From a virus (lineage: Duplodnaviria; Caudoviricetes): 64,000 nt of DNA. Positions 9,950 through 64,000 of the stretch are shown piece by piece (position 1 is the stretch's first letter; every line of letters starts with the position of its first letter). The position numbers were made by a program, and so were the translations under genes. Below the pieces are notes generated by a model, which saw nothing but the letters and a program-made list of their open reading frames with translations, did not search any database and was not told the DNA's origin. The DNA is taken from positions 96,001 through 160,000 of the IMG/VR virus record IMGVR_UViG_3300033273_000282. The stretch is one strand, 5' to 3'.

Positions 9950-10003
9950 TGTGGAAAACCCTGTGGAATCTGTGGAAAAACCTGTGGAAAACTCTGTGGA
10001 AAA
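9950..10003. repeat. Tandem array of five TGTGGAA(AA) units (reverse complement TTTTCCACA, DnaA-box consensus)
   Basis: TGTGGAAAA at 9950, 9971, 9983 and 9995; TGTGGAATC at 9962; followed by an A/T-rich run to 10020. Confidence 0.85.
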
Positions 10004-10051
10004 AAATGTATTAAAAAATGTGTTTGTGTGAGCTAGTCGGCGGAAAGGGAT

Positions 10052-10084
10052 GGGAATGTCTGGGAATGTCTAGGATTGTCTAGG
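10052..10084. repeat. 10-bp tandem repeat GGGAATGTCT x2 plus AGGATTGTCT
   Basis: Read directly from 10052-10084. Confidence 0.75.
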
Positions 10085-10131
10085 TGCCTTTGGGGCTTAG
10101 CACGCAACCTATCGAAAGTCAACCACTCGAA

Positions 10132-10188
10132 GTACACTTTGAGAACTGTCACAGAACCCTCCGAAACCCTCCGAATTGGCTGTATAAT
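10132..10188 (+). promoter_or_regulatory. Early promoter cassette
   Basis: GTACACTTT-GAG-AACTGTCAC at 10132-10152, 30 nt (containing AACCCTCCGA x2), TATAAT at 10183-10188. Confidence 0.7.
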
Positions 10189-10215
10189 TACAGAGTAATC
10201 AAAAGGGATCAAACC

Positions 10216-10503
10216 TTGGCACCACGAAAGAAAAAAGCAACTCCGCCGAAAGCTGCCACAATTGTGAGTCCTGTTACTTTTGATGTAAAAGAGTACAGCA
10301 CAGCTATTGACACCATTTCGGTAGACTCTGAGAAAGTTAGTGTAACCTTCGCAAGTCAAGAGAAAGTGTATGATTATACTTTCTCAGGGGATTTGAAAGA
10401 ATTTGTTGAAACCCTTGAAAAGTATACAAAAGAGCAGCATTTGTCTCTTGGTAAGTATTTCAATGGTTTGGTGAAAGATGGTAGTCTTTCTCAAAAAGTA
10501 TAA
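10216..10503 (+). CDS. KTSC-like domain protein
   Basis: STAIDTISVD...VTF...YDY...SLGKYFN resembles KTSC. TTG start at 10216 lies after the promoter and an AAGGGA leader. Confidence 0.55.
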   Translation: MAPRKKKATPPKAATIVSPVTFDVKEYSTAIDTISVDSEKVSVTFASQEKVYDYTFSGDLKEFVETLEKYTKEQHLSLGKYFNGLVKDGSLSQKV

Positions 10504-10543
10504 CTATTAGTGAAACCTTTGAGTTTAGACAAAAGTAACACAA

Positions 10544-10735
10544 ATGGCTAAAACCTGGAACAATAGAGGTAGTAATCGCAATTCCTCTTTTAGTAAGAAG
10601 AAGAGAGAATATGCTGAGTATCTTGATCTTGAGAGCAGTGGCTATCTTGATCAGATTGCCAATGCTAAGAGGATCAAGAACTATAGCAAAGACATCACCA
10701 ACTACGATGACATCGATGACTACTACTCTGAATGA
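10544..10735 (+). CDS. Small hypothetical protein (basic N-terminus, acidic C-terminus)
   Basis: 63-aa ORF. Confidence 0.65.
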   Translation: MAKTWNNRGSNRNSSFSKKKREYAEYLDLESSGYLDQIANAKRIKNYSKDITNYDDIDDYYSE

Positions 10736-10895
10736 GTTTGTAACACCAACTGATCAGGTAGATTATGTTCAGTATCTGTTGGACACTGATTTGATCAACG
10801 ATCATCCTGAATATCGGAAGATTGCTGACTACTACCTGATGGAGGGTTTGTGTTACGAAGTGTTTGTGGGAGACGATTACAACAACTCTCAGTGA
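10716..10895 (+). CDS. Small hypothetical protein
   Basis: 3' part of track ORF 10611-10895 from ATG 10716. Confidence 0.55.
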   Translation: MTTTLNEFVTPTDQVDYVQYLLDTDLINDHPEYRKIADYYLMEGLCYEVFVGDDYNNSQ

Positions 10896-10963
10896 GTTTG
10901 TGTTAGTAACTGTGTCCGACTAATTGACACTATGCGATGAGCCGCCCGATCGCAAGGGGTTGT

Positions 10964-11023
10964 GTGCCACTTTAATGAACTGTCCACCTAACCCCCCAGA
11001 TCGCGGGTGCCTGTGCCTATACT
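10964..11023 (+). promoter_or_regulatory. Early promoter cassette
   Basis: GTGCCACTTT-AATG-AACTGTCCAC at 10964-10987, 30 nt, TATACT at 11018-11023. Confidence 0.75.
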
Positions 11024-11029
11024 AGTCAC

Positions 11030-11197
11030 ATGAACAAAACCACCAACCCCTACGCTCAGCAGATCCTCGCTAAGGGACGCGACCTGCCCACGACCCCCGC
11101 ACCTAAGCGGGAGTTCCCCTGTACTATCCACGGTCGCCGCTTCGAGACTCAAGAAGAGTATAACGAAGCACTCGCAGATTTCCTGAACGGTAACTGA
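11030..11197 (+). CDS. Small hypothetical protein, 55 aa, probably leaderless (not in track)
   Basis: MNKTTNPYAQQILAKG...FLNGN*; ATG lies 6 nt after the -10 box. Confidence 0.65.
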   Translation: MNKTTNPYAQQILAKGRDLPTTPAPKREFPCTIHGRRFETQEEYNEALADFLNGN

Positions 11198-11201
11198 AAC
11201 T

Positions 11202-11381
11202 ATGTCTGACATGTTTAACTCTGTTCTCGAATCTCTGCCTCAATTCATCTCTGAAATGGAGGCAGATTGGTGTATGGTTTATGACTTCATGGAAGCACAG
11301 ATTGGTGTGCTTACTGAAGATCAATGGGATCAAGTTGAGATGGTATACTGGCAGCATGGTCTAGAAGATCAGCGCTTCTGA
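11202..11381 (+). CDS. Small acidic hypothetical protein, 59 aa (not in track)
   Basis: MSDMFNSVLESLPQF...EDQRF*. Confidence 0.6.
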   Translation: MSDMFNSVLESLPQFISEMEADWCMVYDFMEAQIGVLTEDQWDQVEMVYWQHGLEDQRF

Positions 11382-11432
11382 GTATACCTTACTCACTCCT
11401 GAGTTCTTTATACTTAGGGCGGCTCGCATGGG

Positions 11433-11491
11433 GTGCCAGCTGGCATACTGTCCACCAAACACCCCAAAGCAGCATCCCCTGGCTCTATACT
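11433..11491 (+). promoter_or_regulatory. Early promoter cassette
   Basis: GTGCCAGC-TGGCAT-ACTGTCCAC at 11433-11455, 30 nt, TATACT at 11486-11491. Confidence 0.7.
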
Positions 11492-11497
11492 CATTCC

Positions 11498-11698
11498 ATG
11501 ATCAACATCAACTGCAGCACGTCCACCTCAGTCTGGACTCTCAAGGTCAATCCCCTGACTGGCACATGTAAGGTACGCTGGTTCAAAGGGTGCCTGACTG
11601 AGTATACGTTCAAAGCATCCAAGCGTGCCATCCTAGCGCTGCTGATCGCCCACGACCGTTCCTTGGGACAGTGGGTGAACTGGCACTGCTTCGCTTGA
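11498..11698 (+). CDS. Small KTSC-like protein, probably leaderless
   Basis: STSVWTLKVN...VRWF...EYTF...SLGQWVN; ATG lies 6 nt after the -10 box. Confidence 0.6.
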   Translation: MININCSTSTSVWTLKVNPLTGTCKVRWFKGCLTEYTFKASKRAILALLIAHDRSLGQWVNWHCFA

Positions 11699-11722
11699 TC
11701 TGCCAGCTCCTGGCTCTATACT
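11665..11722 (+). promoter_or_regulatory. Early promoter cassette whose box lies inside the upstream CDS
   Basis: GGGACAGT-GGGTG-AACTGGCAC at 11665-11686, 30 nt, TATACT at 11717-11722. Confidence 0.65.
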
Positions 11723-11750
11723 AAGCACAGTTCAAACAACCACCGCAACC

Positions 11751-12077
11751 ATGCGTAAGATCGAACGCCTGATGAACGACGCCATTTCCGAGGGTCGCAA
11801 CTGGACCAGCGGTAACACTAGCGTTACTCACACCGACGAGGTGGCAGAGGTTCGCCTTCACGGAAACCTGATCGCTGAGGTGGGAGACACCTTTATCCGT
11901 CTCTTTGATGGCGGTTGGCAGTCGAATACCACGAAGTCACGCCTTAACGCGATCCTGCGGGAGCATGGCGAGCAGGGCGACGGCGTGTTCCAGAAGGACT
12001 GGGCATGGTTCGTCACCATGAACACCGCCCAGGGACTGACGACCGTCCCATTCTTCTCTTCCATGCGTCTCGGGTGA
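11751..12077 (+). CDS. Conserved phage hypothetical protein
   Basis: MRKIERLMNDAI...VRLHGNLIA...DGGWQSNTTKSRLNAIL, a recurrent cyanophage early-gene signature. Confidence 0.75.
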   Translation: MRKIERLMNDAISEGRNWTSGNTSVTHTDEVAEVRLHGNLIAEVGDTFIRLFDGGWQSNTTKSRLNAILREHGEQGDGVFQKDWAWFVTMNTAQGLTTVPFFSSMRLG

Positions 12078-12136
12078 GACATTACAGAGTGTAACAACAG
12101 GGTGCCACCAGGCACCCTTTCCTATAGAATGAACCC

Positions 12137-12358
12137 ATGAAACAAATCAAGATGAGGCAGGCACGCAAGATGCTCGCCAAGGTGCCAGGCGTTCAGATCC
12201 GCAGGGGTCGCTCAGGTCATGACAAGATCTCGCACCCTAACCTCAGTGAGACATTCCCCCTCCCTATCCATGGATCAGGCAGCAGCCACGAGCTTTCCCC
12301 TGGGGTAACGAAGAACTTCATGAAGTTCTACGATCGCCTGGTGGCAGCAGCCAATTGA
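12137..12358 (+). CDS. hicA: HicA-like mRNA interferase family protein
   Basis: 73 aa, basic; RRGRSGHDKISHP...FPLPIHG...ELSPGVTKNFMK matches the HicA GxH / PxH / elxxGt pattern. Confidence 0.65.
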   Translation: MKQIKMRQARKMLAKVPGVQIRRGRSGHDKISHPNLSETFPLPIHGSGSSHELSPGVTKNFMKFYDRLVAAAN

Positions 12359-12405
12359 GGCACTGTCCACCATTTCCCCCAAAGCACCCCAGGACCTGCC
12401 ATACT
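12350..12405 (+). promoter_or_regulatory. Early promoter cassette
   Basis: GCCAATT-GAGG-CACTGTCCAC at 12350-12370, 29 nt, CATACT at 12400-12405. Confidence 0.6.
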
Positions 12406-12411
12406 AAGAGC

Positions 12412-12594
12412 ATGACAAACGAAACCAACTTCGACCGCTTCACCTTCGCCGCTCTCGCTGGTCGGGCAGGTCAGACCCCCGCCAACTACGCCAACGACAT
12501 GGGCGACGGCGACTTCGACGACTACTTCACCGCTGAGGATTACGACCGACGCCGCTACGAGACCGAGCGACGCCGCCAGCGTTACGGGTACTGA
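12412..12594 (+). CDS. Small hypothetical protein, 60 aa, probably leaderless
   Basis: ATG lies 6 nt after CATACT; acidic middle and Arg-rich tail. Confidence 0.65.
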   Translation: MTNETNFDRFTFAALAGRAGQTPANYANDMGDGDFDDYFTAEDYDRRRYETERRRQRYGY

Positions 12595-12647
12595 TCATGT
12601 GGGCAGCACTGACTAAACCCCGCTCTCCATCCTACCACCGACGCGCC

Positions 12648-12764
12648 ATGCTTAAGGTTGCCCTGATCGCCCTTGTCCTCTATGTTGCCTGGGAGCCAAT
12701 CCGTCCCCTTCGGGTGATCACCGCTGATATCATCCTGGCAGCACAGCACGAGCTCAGGAAGTAG
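12648..12764 (+). CDS. Small membrane peptide, 38 aa (not in track)
   Basis: MLKVALIALVLYVAWEPIRPLRVITADIILAAQHELRK*; hydrophobic N-terminus. Confidence 0.5.
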   Translation: MLKVALIALVLYVAWEPIRPLRVITADIILAAQHELRK

Positions 12765-12841
12765 GGCAGTCGGCAAGGTGTCCCCTCTGCCGCTGGATTG
12801 GCAGGGGGAGCGCCTAGGATACATACAACAAAGCAAAGCAC

Positions 12842-13063
12842 ATGAACCACACCTTCGCAGTCCAACCCGCAGCATGGGGCAAGTTCGATCCTCACGGGTG
12901 CGACTGGGCAACGGACATCAACCACGCCTACCGCATCGCTAAGCAATGGGGCGAATCCTGCATGATCTGGATGTGCCCCCCTTCTGGTGATCCGATCCGT
13001 TGGTGCCGCGCCGATGCCAACACGAACGCCATCGCTGATCTGGTCTTTGGGGTTGACCGCTGA
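12842..13063 (+). CDS. Small hypothetical protein
   Basis: Follows TAGGAT at 12815-12820 and a hairpin at about 12781-12809. Confidence 0.65.
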   Translation: MNHTFAVQPAAWGKFDPHGCDWATDINHAYRIAKQWGESCMIWMCPPSGDPIRWCRADANTNAIADLVFGVDR

Positions 13064-13106
13064 CCCCAGACCCTGTACAATACACACAACACACACAAAC
13101 GACACG

Positions 13107-13355
13107 ATGAACGGTTGGGCAAATTACGAGACCTGGAACGCTGCCCTCTGGGTTGGCAACGACGAGTTCCTCTACAACACCGCCAAGGCGTGCGTGGAGT
13201 TCGCCGCTGAGGGTGAGAGTCCCTGGGCGAAGTTCGTCCGCTGTATGACCGACGGGCAGATCGGACGCCACCTCGTCACCACTGGCGACGGCGTGCGTTG
13301 GGATGACCCCGCCATCAACGTGGCAGAGATGGAAGACATGATGACCGACCTCTGA
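13107..13355 (+). CDS. Conserved phage hypothetical protein
   Basis: MNGWANYETWNAALWVGNDEFLY signature; follows TACAAT at 13076-13081. Confidence 0.75.
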   Translation: MNGWANYETWNAALWVGNDEFLYNTAKACVEFAAEGESPWAKFVRCMTDGQIGRHLVTTGDGVRWDDPAINVAEMEDMMTDL

Positions 13356-13469
13356 TCCTACCACTGACAGAGGCACTGGGGGGTTGGTCGCCCCCCGCCC
13401 CCCCTAGCTAAAAGGGACCCGCAAGCCTAATCTATAAAGTCTTGCTCTCGCCCACCCGATAGAACGTCA

Positions 13470-13931
13470 ATGCTTTTTCATAGGATCCCTATTTTCAAAA
13501 TTTTTTCCGAGAAAAAATTCCGAGTATACCTTTTTGATAACCCCAAGGAGAGTCATTCCGAGATTATCCGACTGTGTATCGCAGACTGGCTGGATGGTCG
13601 GTTAGACTGTTTTGCGCCCGCCCATGTCCATTGGAGTAAGTCCGACACAGGCACATGGCTTGCTGTTGCGGTGAGTTCCAAGCGTATTGGGGTAGACATT
13701 GAAACAATGCGAGAGCGCAACTATGAAAAAATTTCAAAAAGATTCTTTGACCCATCCGAGGTTACCGACGATATAGAAAAGTTCTACATAGAATGGGTAA
13801 GGAAAGAAGCGTACTGGAAGAAAGCTAAAAAAGGTATCGGAGGGCGCTTAGGGGTTGCTATTCCAAAAGGTCACGGTATAATTACATTAGAGGGATTACC
13901 CGACAACCTTGCTGGAGCAGTTTCACTATGA
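13470..13931 (+). CDS. Sfp/HetI-like 4'-phosphopantetheinyl transferase
   Basis: HWSKSDT (SxSHS equivalent), IGVDIE, KRFFxxxE, FYIEWVRKEAYWK...GIG; motif order matches Sfp-type PPTases. Start uncertain. Confidence 0.8.
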   Translation: MLFHRIPIFKIFSEKKFRVYLFDNPKESHSEIIRLCIADWLDGRLDCFAPAHVHWSKSDTGTWLAVAVSSKRIGVDIETMRERNYEKISKRFFDPSEVTDDIEKFYIEWVRKEAYWKKAKKGIGGRLGVAIPKGHGIITLEGLPDNLAGAVSL

Positions 13932-14128
13932 TCAACCTGGACGACCGCTTTCACTCATACCTCGCAGGTACAAAGCAGTTCTGTATCGACGGTATATGCG
14001 AGAGAGTGAGAACGTACGGCTTCCATTCTTCTGATGATCAAAACGTAGACGGCTTTTATGTTGTCACTGACAATCACAAGCTGATTTACAATCTACAAGA
14101 GCAGTGTATTTCCTGTGAGACTCTATGA
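13928..14128 (+). CDS. Small hypothetical protein
   Basis: ATGA overlaps at both ends. Confidence 0.7.
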   Translation: MINLDDRFHSYLAGTKQFCIDGICERVRTYGFHSSDDQNVDGFYVVTDNHKLIYNLQEQCISCETL

Positions 14129-14292
14129 ATGAACTCGAAATGATTCTTCTACTAAAGAGTCAGGTAGAAGCACTTGAAAAGCGTTTGAATGATATGACAC
14201 TCCTCATGAAGCGCCCAGGCTCAGAGGAATATGAAAAACTCGTTGATGTCGTTTGTGACCATGAAAATCGGTTAAATAAACTTGAGGCTTAA
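14125..14292 (+). CDS. Small hypothetical protein, 55 aa (not in track)
   Basis: MNELEMILLLKSQVEALEKRL...NKLEA*. Confidence 0.65.
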   Translation: MNELEMILLLKSQVEALEKRLNDMTLLMKRPGSEEYEKLVDVVCDHENRLNKLEA

Positions 14293-14325
14293 AAATCGCG
14301 TAAAAACCCGCGAACTCTAAGGGTC

Positions 14326-14973
14326 ATGGCAACGTTATCAAAATCATCATTCAATGACGCCACGATAGGTGTACCATTCAGTGATTCCATTACTATTATT
14401 CCAGAAATCTGTACTGGTACCACTCTAGAGGTGTTTGTGTCAGTATCGATGACTTCGGTATCACCATCAATACCTACTGGGATCGAGCCTGGGTTGTGCC
14501 CAGGTTTTCCTGTAGGTGGATTAACATACGTACCTACAGAAACTCCTCTTAGTACCAGTCCAATATTGACCATCAATGGGACGTTTAATGAAACGTACTT
14601 TGATGAGCGTGAGTGGGAGTACAGGGACGATACAACAGGTAAGAGTATCCATACCCCTATCATTGAGTTAGAGTCTACTGAGAGCGACGGTGGACGTATC
14701 TACAACGTCACTAAGAACAGTGCTGCCAATCCATACAGTACAGGTGGTCAATTTGAAGATGAGATTCCAGATCCTTGCGACACTCTGATCAGATACAAGC
14801 CTGACTTCAGGTCACAGAGGGTTGTGACATATACATATACAGTGAACCTGCTCTGTGCGGGTGCTCCATTTACCCAAGTATTCAATATTCCTCATACTAT
14901 CCTGAATAATTGGGATCTAGGGCGCGATAAAATGAAAGATATCCTAGCAAACAAGATTAGGTACGGTACGTAA
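14326..14973 (+). CDS. Hypothetical protein, probably baseplate-associated
   Basis: 215 aa, coupled (TAATG) to the PAAR gene; TAAATA at 14273-14278 upstream. Confidence 0.65.
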   Translation: MATLSKSSFNDATIGVPFSDSITIIPEICTGTTLEVFVSVSMTSVSPSIPTGIEPGLCPGFPVGGLTYVPTETPLSTSPILTINGTFNETYFDEREWEYRDDTTGKSIHTPIIELESTESDGGRIYNVTKNSAANPYSTGGQFEDEIPDPCDTLIRYKPDFRSQRVVTYTYTVNLLCAGAPFTQVFNIPHTILNNWDLGRDKMKDILANKIRYGT

Positions 14974-15287
14974 TGGCATCAACTCCAGCAGTACAAGGTG
15001 GTTATTCCACTGGTCATGGGTGTTTCCCCCCAACAGCCTGTATAGAAGGGTCTCCAAACGTCTTTGCGGGCGGTCAGAACGTCGCTAGAGTGGGTGACAG
15101 GTACGCTGCTCACAGTTGTGGCAACACTACACACCCTACAAGTAGCAGAAATATCACCAATGGGTCCACTACTGTCTACGTAAACGGCATTTTGTGCGGC
15201 AGATTGGGCTCAGATCACGGTTGTGGAGACGCAACAGGCAACCATGGACTGTCAGAGGGTGCTAAAAAGGTGTACATCGGGGACTGA
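14973..15287 (+). CDS. gp5.4: PAAR-repeat baseplate spike-tip protein
   Basis: GHGCFPP...GSPNVF..GQNVARVGD..AAHSC...GSTTVYVNGILCGRLG...CG: PAAR repeats with His/Cys metal ligands. Confidence 0.9.
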   Translation: MASTPAVQGGYSTGHGCFPPTACIEGSPNVFAGGQNVARVGDRYAAHSCGNTTHPTSSRNITNGSTTVYVNGILCGRLGSDHGCGDATGNHGLSEGAKKVYIGD

Positions 15288-15288
15288 G

Positions 15289-15317
15289 TTGACAAAAAAC
15301 CCTTTTGGCTCTATCAT
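15289..15317 (+). promoter_or_regulatory. Host sigma70-type promoter inside the late region
   Basis: TTGACA (15289-15294), 17 nt, TATCAT (15312-15317). Confidence 0.7.
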
Positions 15318-15345
15318 TTCTAGGTAAAACACACGAAAAACGACC

Positions 15346-15489
15346 ATGGCAAAGCGTCCTTCCCTGACTGGTGGTAAGAAAATCGAGACTAAGCCCAAGA
15401 CTACTCGCCAGGGAGACTCTAAAAACACCAAATACTCTGCTACTGCTCGTAACAAAGCGAAGAAAAAGTACCGTGGACAGGGTAAGTAG
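15346..15489 (+). CDS. Small highly basic protein, 47 aa (not in track)
   Basis: MAKRPSLTGGKKIETKPKTTRQGDSKNTKYSATARNKAKKKYRGQGK*; 16 K/R versus 2 D/E. Confidence 0.75.
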   Translation: MAKRPSLTGGKKIETKPKTTRQGDSKNTKYSATARNKAKKKYRGQGK

Positions 15490-15518
15490 GTCTAAATAAC
15501 TACTCACGGAGATAGCAA

Positions 15519-15561
15519 CCTCCTAAAAAGTTCTCTTTTGAGACTTTTAGGAGGATTTTTT
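15519..15561 (+). terminator. Long hairpin plus U tract; 3' arm contains the SD of the next gene
   Basis: CCTCCTAAAAAGTTCTC-TTTT-GAGACTTTTAGGAGG then ATTTTTT; AGGAGG at 15549-15554, ATG at 15562. Confidence 0.65.
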
Positions 15562-15750
15562 ATGGCTAATTCACCTGTAGACTTGGGAAAAGAGTTTATC
15601 GAGAGCGGAATGACGCTAATTACGTCTCCAGCTGCCGATAAATACCTCAATAGGGTTCGGAAAAAGCGTAATGATCCCCCACAAGACCGCCTGTCGCGTC
15701 AATGTGGTGGTAAAGACGGGTTCGACGACTATGTTGAACGCTGGGAATGA
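15562..15750 (+). CDS. Small hypothetical protein, 62 aa
   Basis: Strong SD 7 nt upstream; TAAATA at 15493-15498. Confidence 0.7.
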   Translation: MANSPVDLGKEFIESGMTLITSPAADKYLNRVRKKRNDPPQDRLSRQCGGKDGFDDYVERWE

Positions 15751-15770
15751 GGCACCTTTCTGAAACCTGC

Positions 15771-15776
15771 TAAATA
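15771..15776 (+). promoter_or_regulatory. T4-type late promoter core (TAAATA)
   Basis: Intergenic, 22 nt upstream of gp25. Confidence 0.65.
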
Positions 15777-15797
15777 CATCAGGTCGAATTGTGGCAA

Positions 15798-16187
15798 ATG
15801 GCATCCACCAGCCGTTCGTTTAAGGATTTTGATCTTTCCTTTAGGAAAAATCCTGTAACGAAGGACGTTAACACCCTAAAAAACGAAGCGGCGATCAAAG
15901 AGGCTGTAAAGAACATCGTTCGTTACAACTTCTATGAGAAGCCATTTTTGCCAGCCTTTGGTGGAAACTTATATACGCCTCTTTTTGAGCTTTGGACTTC
16001 AGGTAACAAAATCCAGTTTGAGGAAAGAGTAAAAACTCTTATCAATGCTTATGAACCTCGCGTCGTATGTTATGACGTTAAAGTGAACTTCACTGAAGAC
16101 CAAAATGATCTTAACGTTGAGATCTATTATCTGATCACTGGTCTACCAAACGTTATTGACAACATCGCAGTCATCCTCAAGAAGTAA
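15798..16187 (+). CDS. gp25: Baseplate wedge subunit gp25
   Basis: FKDFDLSF..NPVTKDV...AIKEAVKNIV...EKPFLPAFG...YEPRV; lies directly before gp6. Confidence 0.9.
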   Translation: MASTSRSFKDFDLSFRKNPVTKDVNTLKNEAAIKEAVKNIVRYNFYEKPFLPAFGGNLYTPLFELWTSGNKIQFEERVKTLINAYEPRVVCYDVKVNFTEDQNDLNVEIYYLITGLPNVIDNIAVILKK

Positions 16188-18040
16188 TGGCACTTACCCA
16201 GGTAAACTCGTTAGAATTTAACGAGATCAAAGCCCAATTAAAAGCATATCTCTCTGGTCAGGATGAATTTTCTGATTATGACTTTGAAGGATCGTCCATG
16301 TCGGTCCTTTTGGACGTTCTTGCTTACAATACTTACTATTCGGCGGTCAGTTCCAACCTGATTGTCAATGAAAACTTCCTCGACAGCGCAATTTTACGCG
16401 AAAATGTCGTAAAACTGGCTAAACTGATCGGTTACACGCCCAGAAGCTACAGATCGGCGCGTGCTAACTTCACAGTTCAAGTCCAAACGCCTTATCCATA
16501 CCCACAATCGGTCCAAATCAACGCTGGAATCTTCGCAAGTTTCGTTGGCGAAGAAAATAGCAACTATATTTTCTCAATTCCCAAAGATTTGGTCGTTTCC
16601 GTGAACACTTTGAACGGAATTGCGACTTTTAATGATGTCGTTGCCTATGAGGGCATCTTCATTAAGGATACTTTTGTAAAAAACACCTCTGATCGCCAAA
16701 GATTTATTCTTGGTAACGAAAAAGCCGATACAACGACTCTAAAAGTTGAAGTTACTCGCGGTACCATAACTGACGCCTATCTTTTGGCGACTGATATTAC
16801 CAGAGTTGACAAAACTAGCAAAAACTTCTTTTTGGAAGAATCTGAGTATAGAAGATTTGAACTTATCTTCGGTGATGGCATCATCGGAGAGGCACTTTTG
16901 AATGGAGACGTGATTGAAGCGACATATTCGCTATCTAGCGGTTCTGGTGCTAACGGATTGGACGATTTTACGTTCGCTGGCACAATTAAGGACTCGGCTA
17001 ACAACCCAATCACCTCTGGAATCACTCTAACGCTCGATACACCTCCTGACGGCGGTTCTGAAGCGGAAACAGTGACTTCTATCAAGTATTCTGCTCCAAA
17101 ATTCTACTCTAGTTTCGGTAGAGCAGTAACTACGAAAGATTATGAGTCGATTATTCCTCAAATCTATCCAAACGTTCAATCTATTGTCGCATTTGGTGGA
17201 GAACAAGCAGAACCTCCAGAATACGGCAAAGTTATGATTGCCATTAAGCCTAAAAACGCAGATAAACTCTCTATCTCGGAAAAAGAGGCAGTTCTTAAGA
17301 AAATCCGTGATTATTCTGTAGGTGCGGTCGAGCCAAAGATCATAGATCCATCCGTTGTCTATATTGATCTTACCTCTTTTGTATATTTCAATCCAAACCT
17401 CACCAGACGCTCCCAGGAGGAGCTGAAACAGGTTATTTTCACAACTCTGACCTCTTTGAACCAGACGAAAGAGTTTAATAAGTTTGGAGGCAAATTTAAG
17501 TATTCCAAACTACAGAAAATTATCGATGATGCTGAAAAGTCAATTACGTCGAACATTACTCGCATCAGAATGCGTAAGAATGTCAACGTAACACTCAACC
17601 AGCGTTTTAACTACACCATTTGCTATGGTAATAGAATTAACGCTCAACTTGAATCGCCAAGTTTCCTCTCTAATGGATTTAAGAGAGTAGACGGCGGTAA
17701 TTTCATATATTATTTGAATGACGACGGTCTTGGCACCGTTAGGCTTTTTTACATCACCGATGCGGGTGCCACACAATATATTGGTGGCAACTGGGGGACT
17801 GTTGACTACGAAAGAGGCGAAATTACCATTAACGACTTGATCATTGATGAAGTTGTTGGTAGCAGCCAAAATACCCTCCAGTTCTCGGTCGTACCTGAGT
17901 CAAATGATCTCGTAGCACTCCGAGAAACCTATTTGACATTGGGTATAGATAACCTAGTGGTAAATGTAATAGATGATGAGATTGCGAGCGGTTCTAATAC
18001 CGCAGGTACAGGTATTATCCCAGAATCCAGCTATAGTTAA
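16187..18040 (+). CDS. gp6: Baseplate wedge subunit gp6
   Basis: LEFNEIKAQLKAYL...FSDYDFEGS.MSVLLDVLAYNTYY...FLDSA; RAVTTKDY; YGKVMIAIKP. Confidence 0.93.
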   Translation: MALTQVNSLEFNEIKAQLKAYLSGQDEFSDYDFEGSSMSVLLDVLAYNTYYSAVSSNLIVNENFLDSAILRENVVKLAKLIGYTPRSYRSARANFTVQVQTPYPYPQSVQINAGIFASFVGEENSNYIFSIPKDLVVSVNTLNGIATFNDVVAYEGIFIKDTFVKNTSDRQRFILGNEKADTTTLKVEVTRGTITDAYLLATDITRVDKTSKNFFLEESEYRRFELIFGDGIIGEALLNGDVIEATYSLSSGSGANGLDDFTFAGTIKDSANNPITSGITLTLDTPPDGGSEAETVTSIKYSAPKFYSSFGRAVTTKDYESIIPQIYPNVQSIVAFGGEQAEPPEYGKVMIAIKPKNADKLSISEKEAVLKKIRDYSVGAVEPKIIDPSVVYIDLTSFVYFNPNLTRRSQEELKQVIFTTLTSLNQTKEFNKFGGKFKYSKLQKIIDDAEKSITSNITRIRMRKNVNVTLNQRFNYTICYGNRINAQLESPSFLSNGFKRVDGGNFIYYLNDDGLGTVRLFYITDAGATQYIGGNWGTVDYERGEITINDLIIDEVVGSSQNTLQFSVVPESNDLVALRETYLTLGIDNLVVNVIDDEIASGSNTAGTGIIPESSYS

Positions 18041-18046
18041 ACCCTA

Positions 18047-21000
18047 ATGGCAGTTGAAAGGTCATCTTGGCGCGTAGCGTCTTGGCAGACTCCCTCCACC
18101 CAGGTGGGAGTCTCTCCAATTGATGCTACAGTCTCACCTGAGGTTAAAGACAGGATATCTGATAGAGTTGAGGAATTCTTACCCCAATTCATCAGAGAGG
18201 ATTATCCTGATTTCATTCAGTTCCTGAAGTATTACTACAGGAGTCAGGAACTGAAGGGTAACCCCCTGGACATCATTGGGAACTTTGATGACTACTATAA
18301 TATCGACAATCTTAATGATCTTGTCGAATCTACCGTCACCTCTGGTTCCGTAAGCATTGATGCGTCTATTATTGACGTACAGAACACTAAGGACTTCCCA
18401 TCTGAGGGTTTGATCCTTATTGACGAAGAAATTATATACTACAGAGAAAAAACTAACACTCAGTTTAGAGGGTGTGTTCGTGGCTTCCATGCGACCACGA
18501 ATATTGGTCTAATTAAGGAATATACGTTTGCTGAGTCTGAACCAGCAGAACATACGTTCCAATCTGAGGTAATTAACCTCAATAACTTCTTTGCGCTGTT
18601 TATTCTCGAAAGATTCAGAACTCAGTTCTCAGAATCGTTCCCTAACAAGTTTGCCGACGGTATTAGAGATTCTTCGGTCACAAAACGACTGAAAGACTTC
18701 TATGCGGCTAAAGGAACCTCCAGATCTTTCAAATATCTGATGAGGGTTCTCTTTGGTGTAGAATCTACCATTCTATATCCAAAAGATAGAATTTTCAAGC
18801 CATCTGATGCTTACTATAGCACCAGAGAGATTATTCGCGCTAAAGCCATCTCTGGTAACCCTGTAGAACTTACAGGGGAAGTTTTGTACCAAGATGCTGA
18901 CCCAAATGATCCAAATGTAGGCAATGCCCGCATTTACGTTAAAACTGTTGTAGAGGTTTTCACCGAAGACGGTAAAATCTACGAATTGGATGTAGATACC
19001 GAAAATGGCACTGGATCCTTCACCACACCTTACAAAACTATTCTTGCTGAAGATACCAGCTCAAACTTAAGTCAAGATTTCATTACTGTTGACTCCACAC
19101 TTGGTTGGCCAGAGACTAAAGGAAGTTTCCGAATCAATAATGAAGTCTTTGAGTATGACGAGAAAACTGTTACACAATTCCTTGGTGTAACCCGTGCTAG
19201 ACAAGATACTCTAGCAGCTAACCATCTTGCTGGTTCTGAGGTTATCTCTGCCTTTGGTATTTACGGTTATTCCAATGTAGATGGCAGTAGAATTGATATT
19301 GCTGTATTTGGCGGCACTAGAGGTGTCAATCTGACCAATGGAGGCAAATATTACGTACAAGACTCTAAAGTCACTACTCCTGCCGCTCCTGGCTTCGATT
19401 CACTCGATCCTATCTGGAGTTCCTTCATTTACAACGTTAGAAAGCTTCTGACGGGTACGAAGATCGAACTTTCTTCTCCAGACTCCCAAGGAAGAGTAGA
19501 AGCACTGATCACAACCTCCAAACCCCATGGTTTGAGACGTGATGACAAAGTGGTCGTTCTTAATGCTCCAGAAGACGTTTACAACAGAGAGTTTATTGTT
19601 GTTGGTACAGCAAACGATACTCAGTTTACTGTGCGTCTCCCAGTCATTCCTATTGCTGGTGTAAACGTTGATTTCTTAGTAACTAGAGAATTTGCGAAAT
19701 CTAGTTCTACAGACACAAGTATTAACCTGAATATTAAGGATGTTCCCGCAGACATCCAGAATACTTATAGATCAGATACCCACGCTATCGTAGCGTCTTC
19801 TGGTTTGCCAAGCCATCAAATTGGTCCATTCGCCCAAGGTATTGACCTTGATCCTGGCAACCAACGCTATCTGAAGCGTATCCCACTGACTACACTTACA
19901 AAATCGACAAAAACCCCAACTCCAGTTGGTCAAGTCGGTATTGGTGTTAATGGTGTACCATTTTTCTCATATAAGTCGGAAGACTTCCGACTTTATGGTG
20001 GTGTTAAAGAAATTAGCGTAATTAACGCTGGTGATGGTTACGACATCACCAATCCCCCTATTGTGGAGTTTGAGCAACTTTGGAAACCAGGAACTAACTA
20101 TTTCCTCAACCAAAGAGTCCGCAATAGCGTAGGTAACAGATATAAAAACCTTGGCAGTGGTAAATCCGCAGAACGTGGAACTGAACCCACTGCTACTGAC
20201 GGTAGCCTTACTGTAGACGGTTCCTGCCTTTGGGAACTTGAGGGTGTCTCTGCCGAGGCAACTGTTTCGGTTTCGGGTCGAGTTTTTGCGATTAACGTAA
20301 CAAATGGTGGTCAAAATTATACCACTGCTCCTACTGTCTCTATTAGTGGTGGTAACCCTACGGTTCAGGCAGCTGCTACTGCCACTATTACTTCTGGCGT
20401 GGTCACTGCTATTAGTGTCACTGCTGAGGGTTCTGGATACACTAGCGTCCCAGTTGTCACTCTAAGTGGTGGCGGCGGTAGTGGTGCTACAGCAGAAGCC
20501 GTTGTTCGTGGCGGTCTGGAAGCAGATGGCATTACTATTACAAACCCAGGTTCTAACTATTCAGAAAGACCTTCTATCACTCTGATTTCTGGTACAGGTG
20601 CTGTAGCATATCCTTCCATTGTTAATGGGAAGATTGCTTCTATCATTCTGACATATGGTGGTAAAAACTACTATGGTCCTCCTGACGTTATCATTACTGG
20701 TGATGGTGTAGGTGCTGTGGCATTTGCTGAGATTGATTCTAATACACAGCAAGTTACTTCTATTAGAGTTACAAACGGTGGTATTGGATATACCGCTGGT
20801 AAAACATTTGTAGATATTGTATATCCTGGTACTGGCGCTTCTTTCCAAGTAGAACTGCCCATCCTCAACTATAACAAAGCCGCAACTCCAGAAGAGTTTG
20901 GATTGACAAGTGCTCAGATGACTGCGTACAAGATTGCTGATGCTGCCAGTGGCGTTTCCATTAAAGGTGCCAACTTTGCCGTATATGGCGGTGAATATGG

Positions 21001-63958: not shown

Positions 63959-64000
63959 ATGATTGATAAAATTTGTATTGTTGGCGGCGGCACCGCTGGA
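63959..64000 (+). CDS. 5' end of an FAD-dependent tryptophan-halogenase-like protein (truncated by window end)
   Basis: MIDKICIVGGGTAG is the Rossmann GxGxxG start typical of PrnA-like proteins; only 14 codons visible. Confidence 0.65.
   Translation, partial: MIDKICIVGGGTAG

What the first reader, a model, noticed from the sequence alone, without database searches (positions are those of the whole stretch)
13470..13931. Phage-encoded Sfp-type phosphopantetheinyl transferase with no carrier protein in the window
Seen: GVDIE (13689-13703) and WVRKEAYWK (13794 onward), the Mg/CoA-binding motifs, are intact; the usual SHS motif is SKS and the protein is compact (153 aa or less). Established: PPTases convert apo- to holo-ACP/PCP for fatty acid, polyketide and NRPS pathways. 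Inference: an auxiliary metabolic gene that boosts or redirects host lipid synthesis, activates a phage carrier protein encoded elsewhere, or modifies another target. A halogenase-like gene also begins at 63959, but no link is demonstrated.
Basis: partly seen in the sequence, partly recalled or inferred. Interest (0 to 1): 0.68.

Follow-up and report, generated by a model that had tools for sequence, protein, structure and literature searches.

The report
Cyanophage mini-PPTase paired with phage ACP
A marine cyanobacterial virus carries a real but miniature enzyme that attaches the phosphopantetheine arm to carrier proteins, and its likely target is the virus's own unusual acyl carrier protein encoded 28 kb away; the gene pair was already annotated in 2010 and nobody knows yet what the carrier carries.

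Summary
The ORF at 13470-13931 (+) is real, intact, under purifying selection, and encodes a 153-aa Sfp-type 4'-phosphopantetheinyl transferase (PPTase). It is about two thirds the length of Sfp but keeps both lobes and the Mg/catalytic residues.

It is not an orphan. The same 200-kb T4-like cyanophage genome encodes one carrier protein, a 166-aa AcpP-like ACP with conserved tails, 28 kb upstream and outside the window. Orthologues of both genes sit at the same positions in P-HM1, P-HM2 and MED4-213. Sullivan et al. (2010) already called them "ACP and its synthetase". An earlier agent of this scan reached the same reading from the ACP side of this genome (e1-5339562).

New here:
- Every PPTase-bearing genome I could assess also has the tailed ACP, while three ACP-bearing records lack any PPTase.
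- In published P-HM2 RNA-seq both genes are middle genes, cluster B in the light.
- The genome holds none of the four acyl-loading or acyl-using families I searched for.

Best reading: it primes the phage ACP, which then works with host enzymes. The ACP's cargo is unknown. This is a new member of a known, unstudied kind, of moderate interest.

The parts
13470..13931 (+). Gene for a 153-aa miniature Sfp-type 4'-phosphopantetheinyl transferase (family T4-GC500 / phrog_23098). N-lobe is about residues 9-70 and C-lobe about 72-153. Predicted Mg ligands are D76, E78 and E113, and the catalytic Lys is K117. S58-D59-T60 stands in place of Sfp S89-H90-S91.
   Evidence: ORF. PF01648 scores 28.7 bits, above the 25-bit cut-off. 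The family profile's best PDB match is Sfp 1QR0/4MRT at E 4e-8. The AF2 model has pLDDT 91.3. VIA-align gives Sfp 4MRT_A Z 13.0, rmsd 3.3 A, 135 residues aligned. Invariant residues are listed. dN/dS is 0.13-0.40.
13378..13396 (+). GC-rich hairpin (GGGGGG-TTGGTCG-CCCCCC) between the upstream DUF7249 gene and the PPTase gene. Probably a terminator or RNA-end element of the upstream unit.
   Evidence: Read from the sequence. In the alignment of six phage loci, three stem pairs switch CG to GC with pairing kept. No T-run follows, and the terminator scan did not call it.
13404..13451 (+). Near-invariant non-coding leader upstream of the PPTase start (CTAGCTAAAAGGGACCCGC ... CTATAAAGTCTTGCTCTCGC). 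It is a candidate promoter and 5'UTR of the PPTase transcription unit and contains a TATAAAG box resembling the T4-type late-promoter box.
   Evidence: It is identical or nearly so in loci whose PPTase proteins are only 67-83% identical to this one. Both halves occur only once in the window and in the 200-kb genome. No Rfam match. The function is inferred, not shown.
13928..14292 (+). Two small conserved ORFs of 66 aa and 55 aa. The first overlaps the PPTase stop (ATGA). They form the fixed downstream border of the PPTase slot and precede a 215-aa ORF, PAAR, gp25 and gp6. They are context, not part of the priming system.
   Evidence: ORFs. They match phrog_6312 and phrog_23214. They occur downstream of the PPTase in all related loci. 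The 55-aa ORF has a homologue in both PPTase-less genomes examined, and the 66-aa ORF in G007 only.

Best explanation
The gene encodes an active, miniature, single-chain two-lobed (Sfp-type) phosphopantetheinyl transferase. It is made in the middle phase of infection. Its main job is to transfer the 4'-phosphopantetheine arm of CoA onto the serine of the LEADSLD motif (Ser59) of the phage's own 166-aa AcpP-like carrier protein. That protein is encoded 28 kb upstream at G000:C1:81525-82025. The transfer would make the phage's holo-ACP supply independent of the host's PPTase.

The holo-ACP keeps the canonical helix-II docking surface. Four acyl-loading or acyl-using families were searched for in the genome and none was found. 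The ACP is therefore then most likely charged and used by host type-II fatty-acid/lipid enzymes. Its conserved basic and acidic tails suggest an added, unknown targeting or binding role.

Shown: the enzyme family, fold, catalytic residues, selection, gene co-occurrence, and co-expression in a relative. Inferred: catalytic activity, the ACP as substrate, and everything downstream of priming.
For: Enzyme:
- PF01648 scores above its cut-off.
- The family profile's best PDB match is Sfp, E 4e-8.
- The AF2 model has pLDDT 91.3.
- The top 34 Foldseek PDB matches are all Sfp-type PPTases.
- VIA-align gives Sfp Z 13.0 across both lobes. AcpS-type chains match only residues 72-153, with Z 8-9.
- D76, E78, E113, K117 and W109 are invariant across the phage clade; D76, E113, K117 and W109 are also invariant across 129 relatives.
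- dN/dS is 0.13-0.40.

Partner:
- The only PP-binding domain in the 200-kb genome is a 166-aa ACP.
- Its core is strongly AcpP-like; the best PDB ACP scores E 4e-16.
- In the phage collection, the only close ACP relatives (51-56% identity) are in P-HM1, P-HM2 and MED4-213. These are the only three phages there that hold a PPTase relative.
- Both genes also lie on IMG/VR record G006.
- Both lie 25.7 kb apart on one ENA contig of 117.7 kb.
- A further lineage carries both, seen on overlapping contigs with the same gene order.
- Sullivan et al. 2010 named them 'ACP and its synthetase'.
- Three ACP-bearing records lack any PPTase: G005 (189 kb, 100% complete), G007 and G010. The PPTase holders are thus nested within the ACP holders.

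Expression:
- In P-HM2 RNA-seq the PPTase PHM2_076 is Mid(B) in light and dark.
- The ACP PHM2_029 is Mid(B) in light and Mid(C) in dark, while the flanking structural genes are Late (PMC5082946 S2 Table).

Docking:
- The complex prediction gave 'weak support': score 0.52 against 0.00 for the best control.
- That mark was reached by 58 of 80 solved complexes and 2 of 110 mismatched pairs. At 0.60 or under it was reached by only 7 of those 80 and by both mismatches that passed.
- The three runs agree in at least 81% of their contacts, and the partner's pLDDT is at least 82.
- Like complexes are solved (4MRT, 6RCX), so the pass may come from memory.

No phage acyl enzymes:
- No AMP-binding, ketoacyl-synthase, fatty-acid desaturase or PlsC-type acyltransferase domain was found in the genome.
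Against: - No activity has been measured for any member of the family.
- The N-lobe lacks the Sfp-type His: S-D-T replaces S-H-S. The Lys of the 'GKP' motif is not kept either; the consensus reads GKP where this protein reads F-A-P. CoA binding may therefore differ or be weaker.
- The ACP is about four times commoner than the PPTase in IMG/VR, 237 against 57 contigs. It also occurs in a complete genome without a PPTase. The ACP therefore does not need this enzyme, and the host enzyme can presumably prime it.
- The two genes are 22-28 kb apart, not in one operon.
- The genomes that hold both belong to a few related lineages, so co-occurrence partly reflects shared descent.
- The lipid-synthesis role rests only on the AcpP-like core and on the absence of the four families searched for.
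Confidence: 0.68

Rival explanations
1. It is a general host-directed auxiliary metabolic enzyme. Its main substrate is the host's own AcpP, or another host carrier protein, and it keeps host fatty-acid synthesis supplied with holo-ACP after host gene expression is shut off. Presence of the phage ACP in the same genomes is parallel, not dependent.
For: Sfp-type PPTases are typically broad in substrate range (established knowledge, not tested here). The phage ACP core is close to bacterial AcpP, so an enzyme that fits one may fit the other. The ACP exists without the PPTase in G005, G007 and G010. The two genes are unlinked, 22-28 kb apart.
Against: In all seven assessable cases the PPTase is found only in genomes or lineages that also carry the tailed ACP. 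A host-directed enzyme has no reason to be restricted in that way. The many cyanomyoviruses in the phage collection that lack the ACP also lack the PPTase.
Confidence: 0.15
2. The ACP and PPTase belong to a phage-private tailoring pathway. The holo-ACP would carry an acyl or aminoacyl group that phage Fe/2-oxoglutarate oxygenases or flavin halogenases modify and that ends up on a virion or fibre protein or on a small molecule.
For: The genome holds two Trp-halogenase-family genes. Carrier-tethered substrates are known for some halogenases and TauD-like hydroxylases (established knowledge). Both genes sit at the edges of baseplate and fibre gene blocks: gp5-ACP-cpeT-fibres, and PPTase-PAAR-gp25-gp6.
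Against: No adenylating or condensing enzyme that could load the carrier was found. The halogenases lie 50 kb away. In a published survey halogenases occur in 20 of 153 cyanophages but the ACP in only 2 of 153 (PMC10452541). In P-HM2 the ACP and PPTase are middle genes while the neighbouring structural genes are late.
Confidence: 0.1
3. It is catalytically weak or dead. Having lost N-lobe CoA-binding residues, it would act by binding ACP, for example to sequester or chaperone apo-ACP.
For: The Sfp His90 equivalent is Asp, and the GKP lysine is not kept. The enzyme is a third shorter than characterised Sfp-type enzymes.
Against: All three metal ligands and the catalytic Lys are invariant in the phage clade. 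Selection is purifying. S-D-S variants of the motif also occur in otherwise ordinary cellular relatives, P0017, P0028 and P0051. An invariant Lys (K57) next to the Asp could take over phosphate binding, which is an inference.
Confidence: 0.07

Closest known systems
T4-GC500 '4'-P-pantetheinyl transferase' (ACPS) and T4-GC457 'ACP' of Prochlorococcus phages P-HM1 and P-HM2, with the unannotated orthologues in MED4-213 (Sullivan et al. 2010, PMC3037559)
   Same: The proteins are orthologous: PPTase 43-45% identity over 86-91% of its length, ACP 51-56% identity including part of the tails. They have the same length class and the same invariant residues. They sit in the same genome positions: PPTase just upstream of PAAR, gp25 and gp6, and ACP just downstream of gp5.
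   Different: This phage is a different, higher-GC lineage whose nucleotide matches are to Synechococcus phages. More genes lie between its ACP and cpeT. Its PPTase carries a conserved leader that I aligned only among the Synechococcus-type loci; the P-HM group was not included in that alignment.
Sfp of Bacillus subtilis (PDB 1QR0, 4MRT) and other group II PPTases (human AASDHPPT, PcpS, PptT, PptAb)
   Same: It has the two-lobed pseudo-dimeric fold in one chain, the GxDxE and WxxKEAxxK motifs, and the metal ligands and catalytic Lys.
   Different: It is 153 aa against 220-320 aa, and both lobes are trimmed. S-D-T replaces S-H-S, and the GKP lysine is missing. Sequence identity to Sfp is only 24-28% over the aligned part.
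AcpS (group I) holo-ACP synthases
   Same: The C-lobe (residues 72-153) superposes on AcpS monomers at Z 8-9 with rmsd about 2.0 A. The presumed substrate is also an AcpP-type ACP.
   Different: AcpS has one lobe per chain and works as a trimer. This protein has its own N-lobe, and every full-length structural match is Sfp-type.
Other phage-encoded ACPs (phrog_5934; Serratia phiMAM1-like, Vibrio, Acinetobacter and Pseudomonas phages)
   Same: They share the PP-binding domain with the DSL serine.
   Different: Those are matched only over the ACP core (query residues about 15-95), at 36-60% identity. I did not check whether they travel with a PPTase. The cyanophage ACP forms its own family (phrog_27464) with a conserved N-extension, a KANKGKKRK basic block, a PxPxxP stretch and an acidic end.

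Membership tests
4'-phosphopantetheinyl transferase superfamily (Pfam PF01648) | Profile match above the curated gathering score | tested here: met
   28.7 bits against a cut-off of 25, residues 72-127. The whole-genome scan gives 29.2 bits.
Sfp-type (group II) PPTase | Two pseudo-symmetric alpha/beta lobes in one polypeptide | tested here: met
   AF2 model with pLDDT 91.3. Sfp 4MRT_A gives Z 13.0, rmsd 3.3 A, 135 residues aligned, model 17-153 against Sfp 1-206. AcpS-type chains align only to residues 72-153.
Sfp-type (group II) PPTase | Metal-binding acidic residues and catalytic Lys (Sfp D107, E109, E151, K155) within the GxDxE and (W/F)xxKE(A/S)xxK motifs | tested here: met
   D76, E78, E113 and K117 align to them. 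All four are invariant in the phage clade. D76, E113 and K117 are also invariant across 129 relatives.
Sfp-type (group II) PPTase | N-lobe CoA-binding motif (F/W)N(I/L/V)SHS with its His, and the preceding GKP lysine | tested here: not met
   The aligned residues are W-S-K-S-D-T, so His is replaced by Asp59. F-A-P stands where the consensus reads G-K-P. S-D-S variants also exist in some cellular relatives.
Sfp-type (group II) PPTase | Length of about 220-240 aa or more | tested here: not met
   153 aa, with the phage clade at 146-163 aa. Compact relatives of about 155-160 aa exist in bacteria, for example a Clostridia MAG protein.
Sfp-type (group II) PPTase | CoA-dependent transfer of phosphopantetheine to an apo carrier protein | not testable with these tools
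   Needs an enzyme assay or complementation.
AcpS-type (group I) PPTase | Single lobe of about 120 aa that forms active sites between the subunits of a trimer | tested here: not met
   The protein has an N-lobe of its own (residues 9-70) that aligns with the N-lobes of Sfp-type enzymes.
Cyanophage ACP/ACPS pair (T4-GC457 + T4-GC500) | Orthologues of both genes in one genome at the conserved positions | tested here: met
   The PPTase is at G000:C1:109470-109931, upstream of PAAR, gp25 and gp6. The ACP is at 81525-82025, downstream of gp5. The arrangement is the same as in P-HM1, P-HM2 and MED4-213.
Type II acyl carrier protein (partner gene, Pfam PF00550) | PP-binding profile above its cut-off, the DSL serine, and an acidic helix II | tested here: met
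   29-30 bits against a cut-off of 20.8. The motif [26 protein letters not shown] is present. The best PDB ACPs score E 4e-16.

The most novel reading that the evidence does not exclude
The phage PPTase and the tailed ACP form a co-evolved, semi-private priming pair. In all seven assessable PPTase-bearing genomes or lineages, the ACP residue three positions before the modified serine is Glu, Asp or Asn. That position is the canonical Gly of DLGxDS. In the three PPTase-less records it is Gly or Met. If the polar or acidic residue makes the ACP a poor substrate for the host enzyme, the miniature PPTase would rescue it. Its own altered N-lobe (His to Asp, with a new invariant Lys) might be part of that fit. 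The phage would then have a holo-ACP pool insulated from host control.
Probability: 0.2. Interest if true: 0.6.

Novelty: new member of a known kind. Interest (0 to 1): 0.36.

Why it matters
T4-like cyanophages kill a large share of the ocean's Prochlorococcus and Synechococcus, and their host-like genes show which host processes limit virus production. A virus-encoded carrier protein with its own activating enzyme suggests that acyl-carrier chemistry is one such limit for one abundant phage group. The tailed ACP occurs on at least 237 IMG/VR contigs. Some of its variants occur on hundreds of metagenome contigs.

The enzyme may also interest biochemists as a very small natural Sfp-type PPTase, at 146-163 aa, with a changed CoA-binding motif. 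I searched for papers on this and found none that tests any member. The phage family is labelled "unknown function" in PHROGs.

The gene itself is not a discovery. It was annotated in 2010, and this scan had already found the pair on this genome.

Tried and rejected
- The first AF2 model, from an 11-sequence alignment, was poor (pLDDT 54.7). I replaced it with a model from a 129-sequence alignment.
- The ACP search in four PPTase-bearing IMG/VR fragments (G001-G004) found nothing. Those contigs end 1-26 kb upstream of the PPTase, short of or at best barely reaching the 22-28 kb spacing, so the result says nothing.
- The ENA contigs behind L018-L020 cannot be searched whole. I walked along them with exact-protein look-ups instead.
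- I tested the 245-aa gene next to the ACP as a possible third partner and rejected it. It has no Pfam family. It has remote relatives in ACP-less Synechococcus phages. It is unrelated to the gene at that position in P-HM2.
- I considered a strict 'acidic residue at -3 equals PPTase present' rule and weakened it, because one PPTase-bearing lineage has Asn there.
- Literature searches for a functional study of a cyanophage PPTase or ACP found none.
- Searches for the role of Sfp His90 found nothing usable. What I say about that residue's role is from memory.
- A scan of 185,579 species genomes with the phage-family patterns found only core-region matches of at most 46% identity over about 50-115 residues. 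These were in Clostridia, Bacteroidota and others, with no cyanobacterium among the best 80. A recent capture from the host is therefore not supported. The pattern pre-filter limits what this scan can show.
- The deep alignment A4 had no stretch conserved enough for that scan.
- Rfam has no match to the leader.

Full report
**What is in the sequence**

An ORF of 153 codons runs from the ATG at 13470 to the TGA at 13931 on the + strand. The protein matches Pfam ACPS (PF01648) at 28.7 bits, above the curated 25-bit cut-off. It matches NCBIfam models of Sfp-type enzymes (AusB, HetI, EntD) far below their equivalog cut-offs.

The window is bases 96001-160000 of a 200,309-bp IMG/VR virus record that CheckV rates as 100% complete. 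Its nucleotide matches are to Synechococcus T4-like myoviruses. Its neighbours are PAAR, gp25, gp6 and a giant gp7-like gene.

**Is the gene alive?**

All relatives found are 146-163 aa, apart from fragments. The short length is therefore the family's normal state and not a truncation. Pairwise dN/dS between this gene and its relatives is 0.13-0.40.

In Prochlorococcus phage P-HM2 the orthologue is PHM2_076. It is transcribed as a middle gene, cluster B, in both light and dark (Thompson et al. 2016, PMC5082946, S2 Table). The "pseudogene or not expressed" refutation fails for the family. I could obtain no read data for this particular phage.

**What kind of PPTase?**

- A profile of the phage family finds Sfp of B. 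subtilis as the best solved relative, at E 4e-8.
- An AlphaFold2 model built on 129 relatives has mean pLDDT 91.3.
- The 34 best Foldseek matches in the PDB are all group II (Sfp-type) enzymes.
- VIA-align gives Sfp 4MRT_A Z 13.0, rmsd 3.3 A, with 135 of 153 residues aligned, spanning model 17-153 and Sfp 1-206.
- AcpS-type chains match only residues 72-153, at Z 8-9 and rmsd about 2 A.

The protein is therefore a single-chain, two-lobed Sfp-type enzyme in miniature, with lobes of about 60 and 80 residues.

The Sfp metal ligands and catalytic lysine correspond to D76, E78, E113 and K117. All four are invariant in the phage clade, and D76, E113 and K117 are also invariant across the 129 relatives.

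HMMER's alignment and the fixed spacing to GxDxE in 60 relatives place Sfp S89-H90-S91 opposite S58-D59-T60. The His is an Asp that is invariant in the clade. K57, also invariant, stands where Sfp has Ile88. The Lys of the usual GKP motif is also absent.

From memory, these N-lobe residues contact the phosphates of CoA in Sfp. I could not check this in a paper. S-D-S variants occur in some cellular relatives. Compact forms of 155-160 aa exist in bacteria, for example a Clostridia MAG protein. Neither oddity is therefore unique to phages.

**It is not an orphan**

A whole-genome scan with PF00550 finds exactly one carrier domain, in a 166-aa ORF at G000:C1:81525-82025. That is 28 kb upstream of the PPTase and outside the window. 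Its core, [26 protein letters not shown], is strongly AcpP-like; the best PDB ACPs score E 4e-16.

It carries a roughly 25-aa N-terminal extension and a roughly 65-aa tail. The tail has a basic block (KNKGKKRK), a Pro-rich stretch and an acidic end. These features are conserved across a large family: 1414 database hits, and 237 IMG/VR contigs.

**Link between the two genes**

- In the collection of 50,697 phage records, PPTase relatives occur only in P-HM1, P-HM2 and MED4-213. The only close relatives of the tailed ACP occur in those same three phages.
- Sullivan et al. [quoted passage not shown]
- Both genes lie on IMG/VR record G006, 24 kb apart.
- Both lie on ENA contig ERZ27251987:k141_252680, 25.7 kb apart.
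- Both occur in a further lineage, seen on overlapping contigs with identical gene order.
- Three ACP-bearing records lack any PPTase by both the family profile and, for G005 and G007, PF01648. They are G005 (189 kb, 100% complete), G007 and G010, the latter two with more than 70 kb downstream of the ACP. G006 served as a positive control in the same searches.
- In G005 and G007 the slot upstream of the conserved small ORFs, PAAR and gp25 holds other small genes.

PPTase holders are thus a subset of ACP holders. This is what one expects if the PPTase serves the ACP and the ACP can also be primed by the host enzyme. The genomes involved belong to only a few lineages, so this is suggestive and not statistical proof.

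In P-HM2 the ACP (PHM2_029), its neighbour PHM2_030 and cpeT form a small island of middle genes between late structural genes. The ACP and the PPTase share cluster B in the light.

A complex prediction of the PPTase with the ACP core, CoA and Mg gave "weak support". The score was 0.52 against 0.00 for the best control. That mark was reached by 58 of 80 solved complexes and 2 of 110 mismatched pairs. At 0.60 or below it was reached by only 7 of those 80 and by both mismatches that passed. The runs agree in at least 81% of contacts and the partner's pLDDT is at least 82. Similar complexes are solved, so the pass may come from memory.

**What the holo-ACP does**

This is not known. The genome has no AMP-binding, ketoacyl-synthase, fatty-acid desaturase or PlsC-type acyltransferase domain. 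Any loading and use must therefore fall to host enzymes or to unrecognised phage proteins. The intact helix II argues for host type II fatty-acid enzymes. The conserved tails argue for an extra, unknown interaction.

The two Trp-halogenase genes start at window position about 63968 and just beyond the window. They are 50 kb away. In a published survey of 153 cyanophages, halogenases occur in 20 and the ACP in 2 (PMC10452541). I see no link.

**Origin**

The phage clade stands apart. Four 50%-identity clusters score E below 1e-30, and the next complete (non-fragment) proteins score about 1e-13. In 185,579 species genomes the best matches reach only 28-46% identity over the catalytic core. They are mostly in Clostridia and Bacteroidota, with no cyanobacterium among the best 80. 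Recent capture from the host is not supported.

**A lead**

The ACP residue three positions before the serine is E, D or N in the seven PPTase-bearing genomes or lineages, and G or M in the three PPTase-less ones. This may mark co-adaptation of carrier and enzyme, or merely lineage.

**Verdict**

The orphan reading is wrong. The function as primer of the phage ACP is well supported but unproven. The pair is already in the literature as an annotation and was found before by this scan on this genome (e1-5339562).

Noticed in passing
window 13378-13451: A GC hairpin with compensatory stem changes is followed by a 48-nt non-coding block. The block is nearly identical in phage lineages whose PPTase proteins are only 67-83% identical, and it occurs once in the 200-kb genome. 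It is a candidate promoter or leader of the PPTase unit.
   Followed up: partly
window 13470-18040 compared with loci L006 and L009: Identity is mosaic. The PPTase is 83% identical to L006 and 67% to L009, but the genes just downstream (66-aa ORF, gp25, gp6) are 92-93% identical to L009 and 52-77% to L006. This implies a recombination joint at the 3' end of the PPTase gene.
   Followed up: partly
G000:C1:81525-86754 (outside the window); L018-L020, L240-L243, L249-L251: In every lineage examined the tailed ACP lies just after gp5 and a few genes before cpeT and the long fibre genes. In P-HM2 the genes ACP, PHM2_030 and cpeT form a middle-expressed island inside late structural genes.
   Followed up: partly
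window 12001-13400: A block with 55% GC, against about 45% elsewhere, holds DUF7249 and Kyano_Gp96 genes. It is the only part of 10000-20000 with about 84% nucleotide identity to cultured Synechococcus phages (S-B43, S-WAM2, S-RSM4).
   Followed up: no
L016:4303-7244 (IMGVR_UViG_3300005583_000005): A different viral contig holds a plain 85-aa ACP, without tails, directly after a P-loop kinase-like gene and before two 2OG-oxygenase-like genes. This is another carrier-protein context in marine viruses.
   Followed up: no
proteins P0024, P0025, P0026, P0034, P0050: Compact Sfp-like PPTases of 155-160 aa with a normal SHS motif exist outside the phage clade; one is named from a Clostridia MAG. A short Sfp-type class seems to exist that I have not seen described.
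   Followed up: partly
window 14326-15287: A 215-aa ORF with no family match lies directly before a PAAR-motif protein. Its counterpart in P-HM1 and P-HM2 is annotated 'putative RTX toxin'. The pair is conserved upstream of gp25.
   Followed up: no
window about 63968 and G000:C1:161532-162824: Two full-length Trp-halogenase-family genes lie in tandem (PF04820, 309 and 351 bits).
   Followed up: partly
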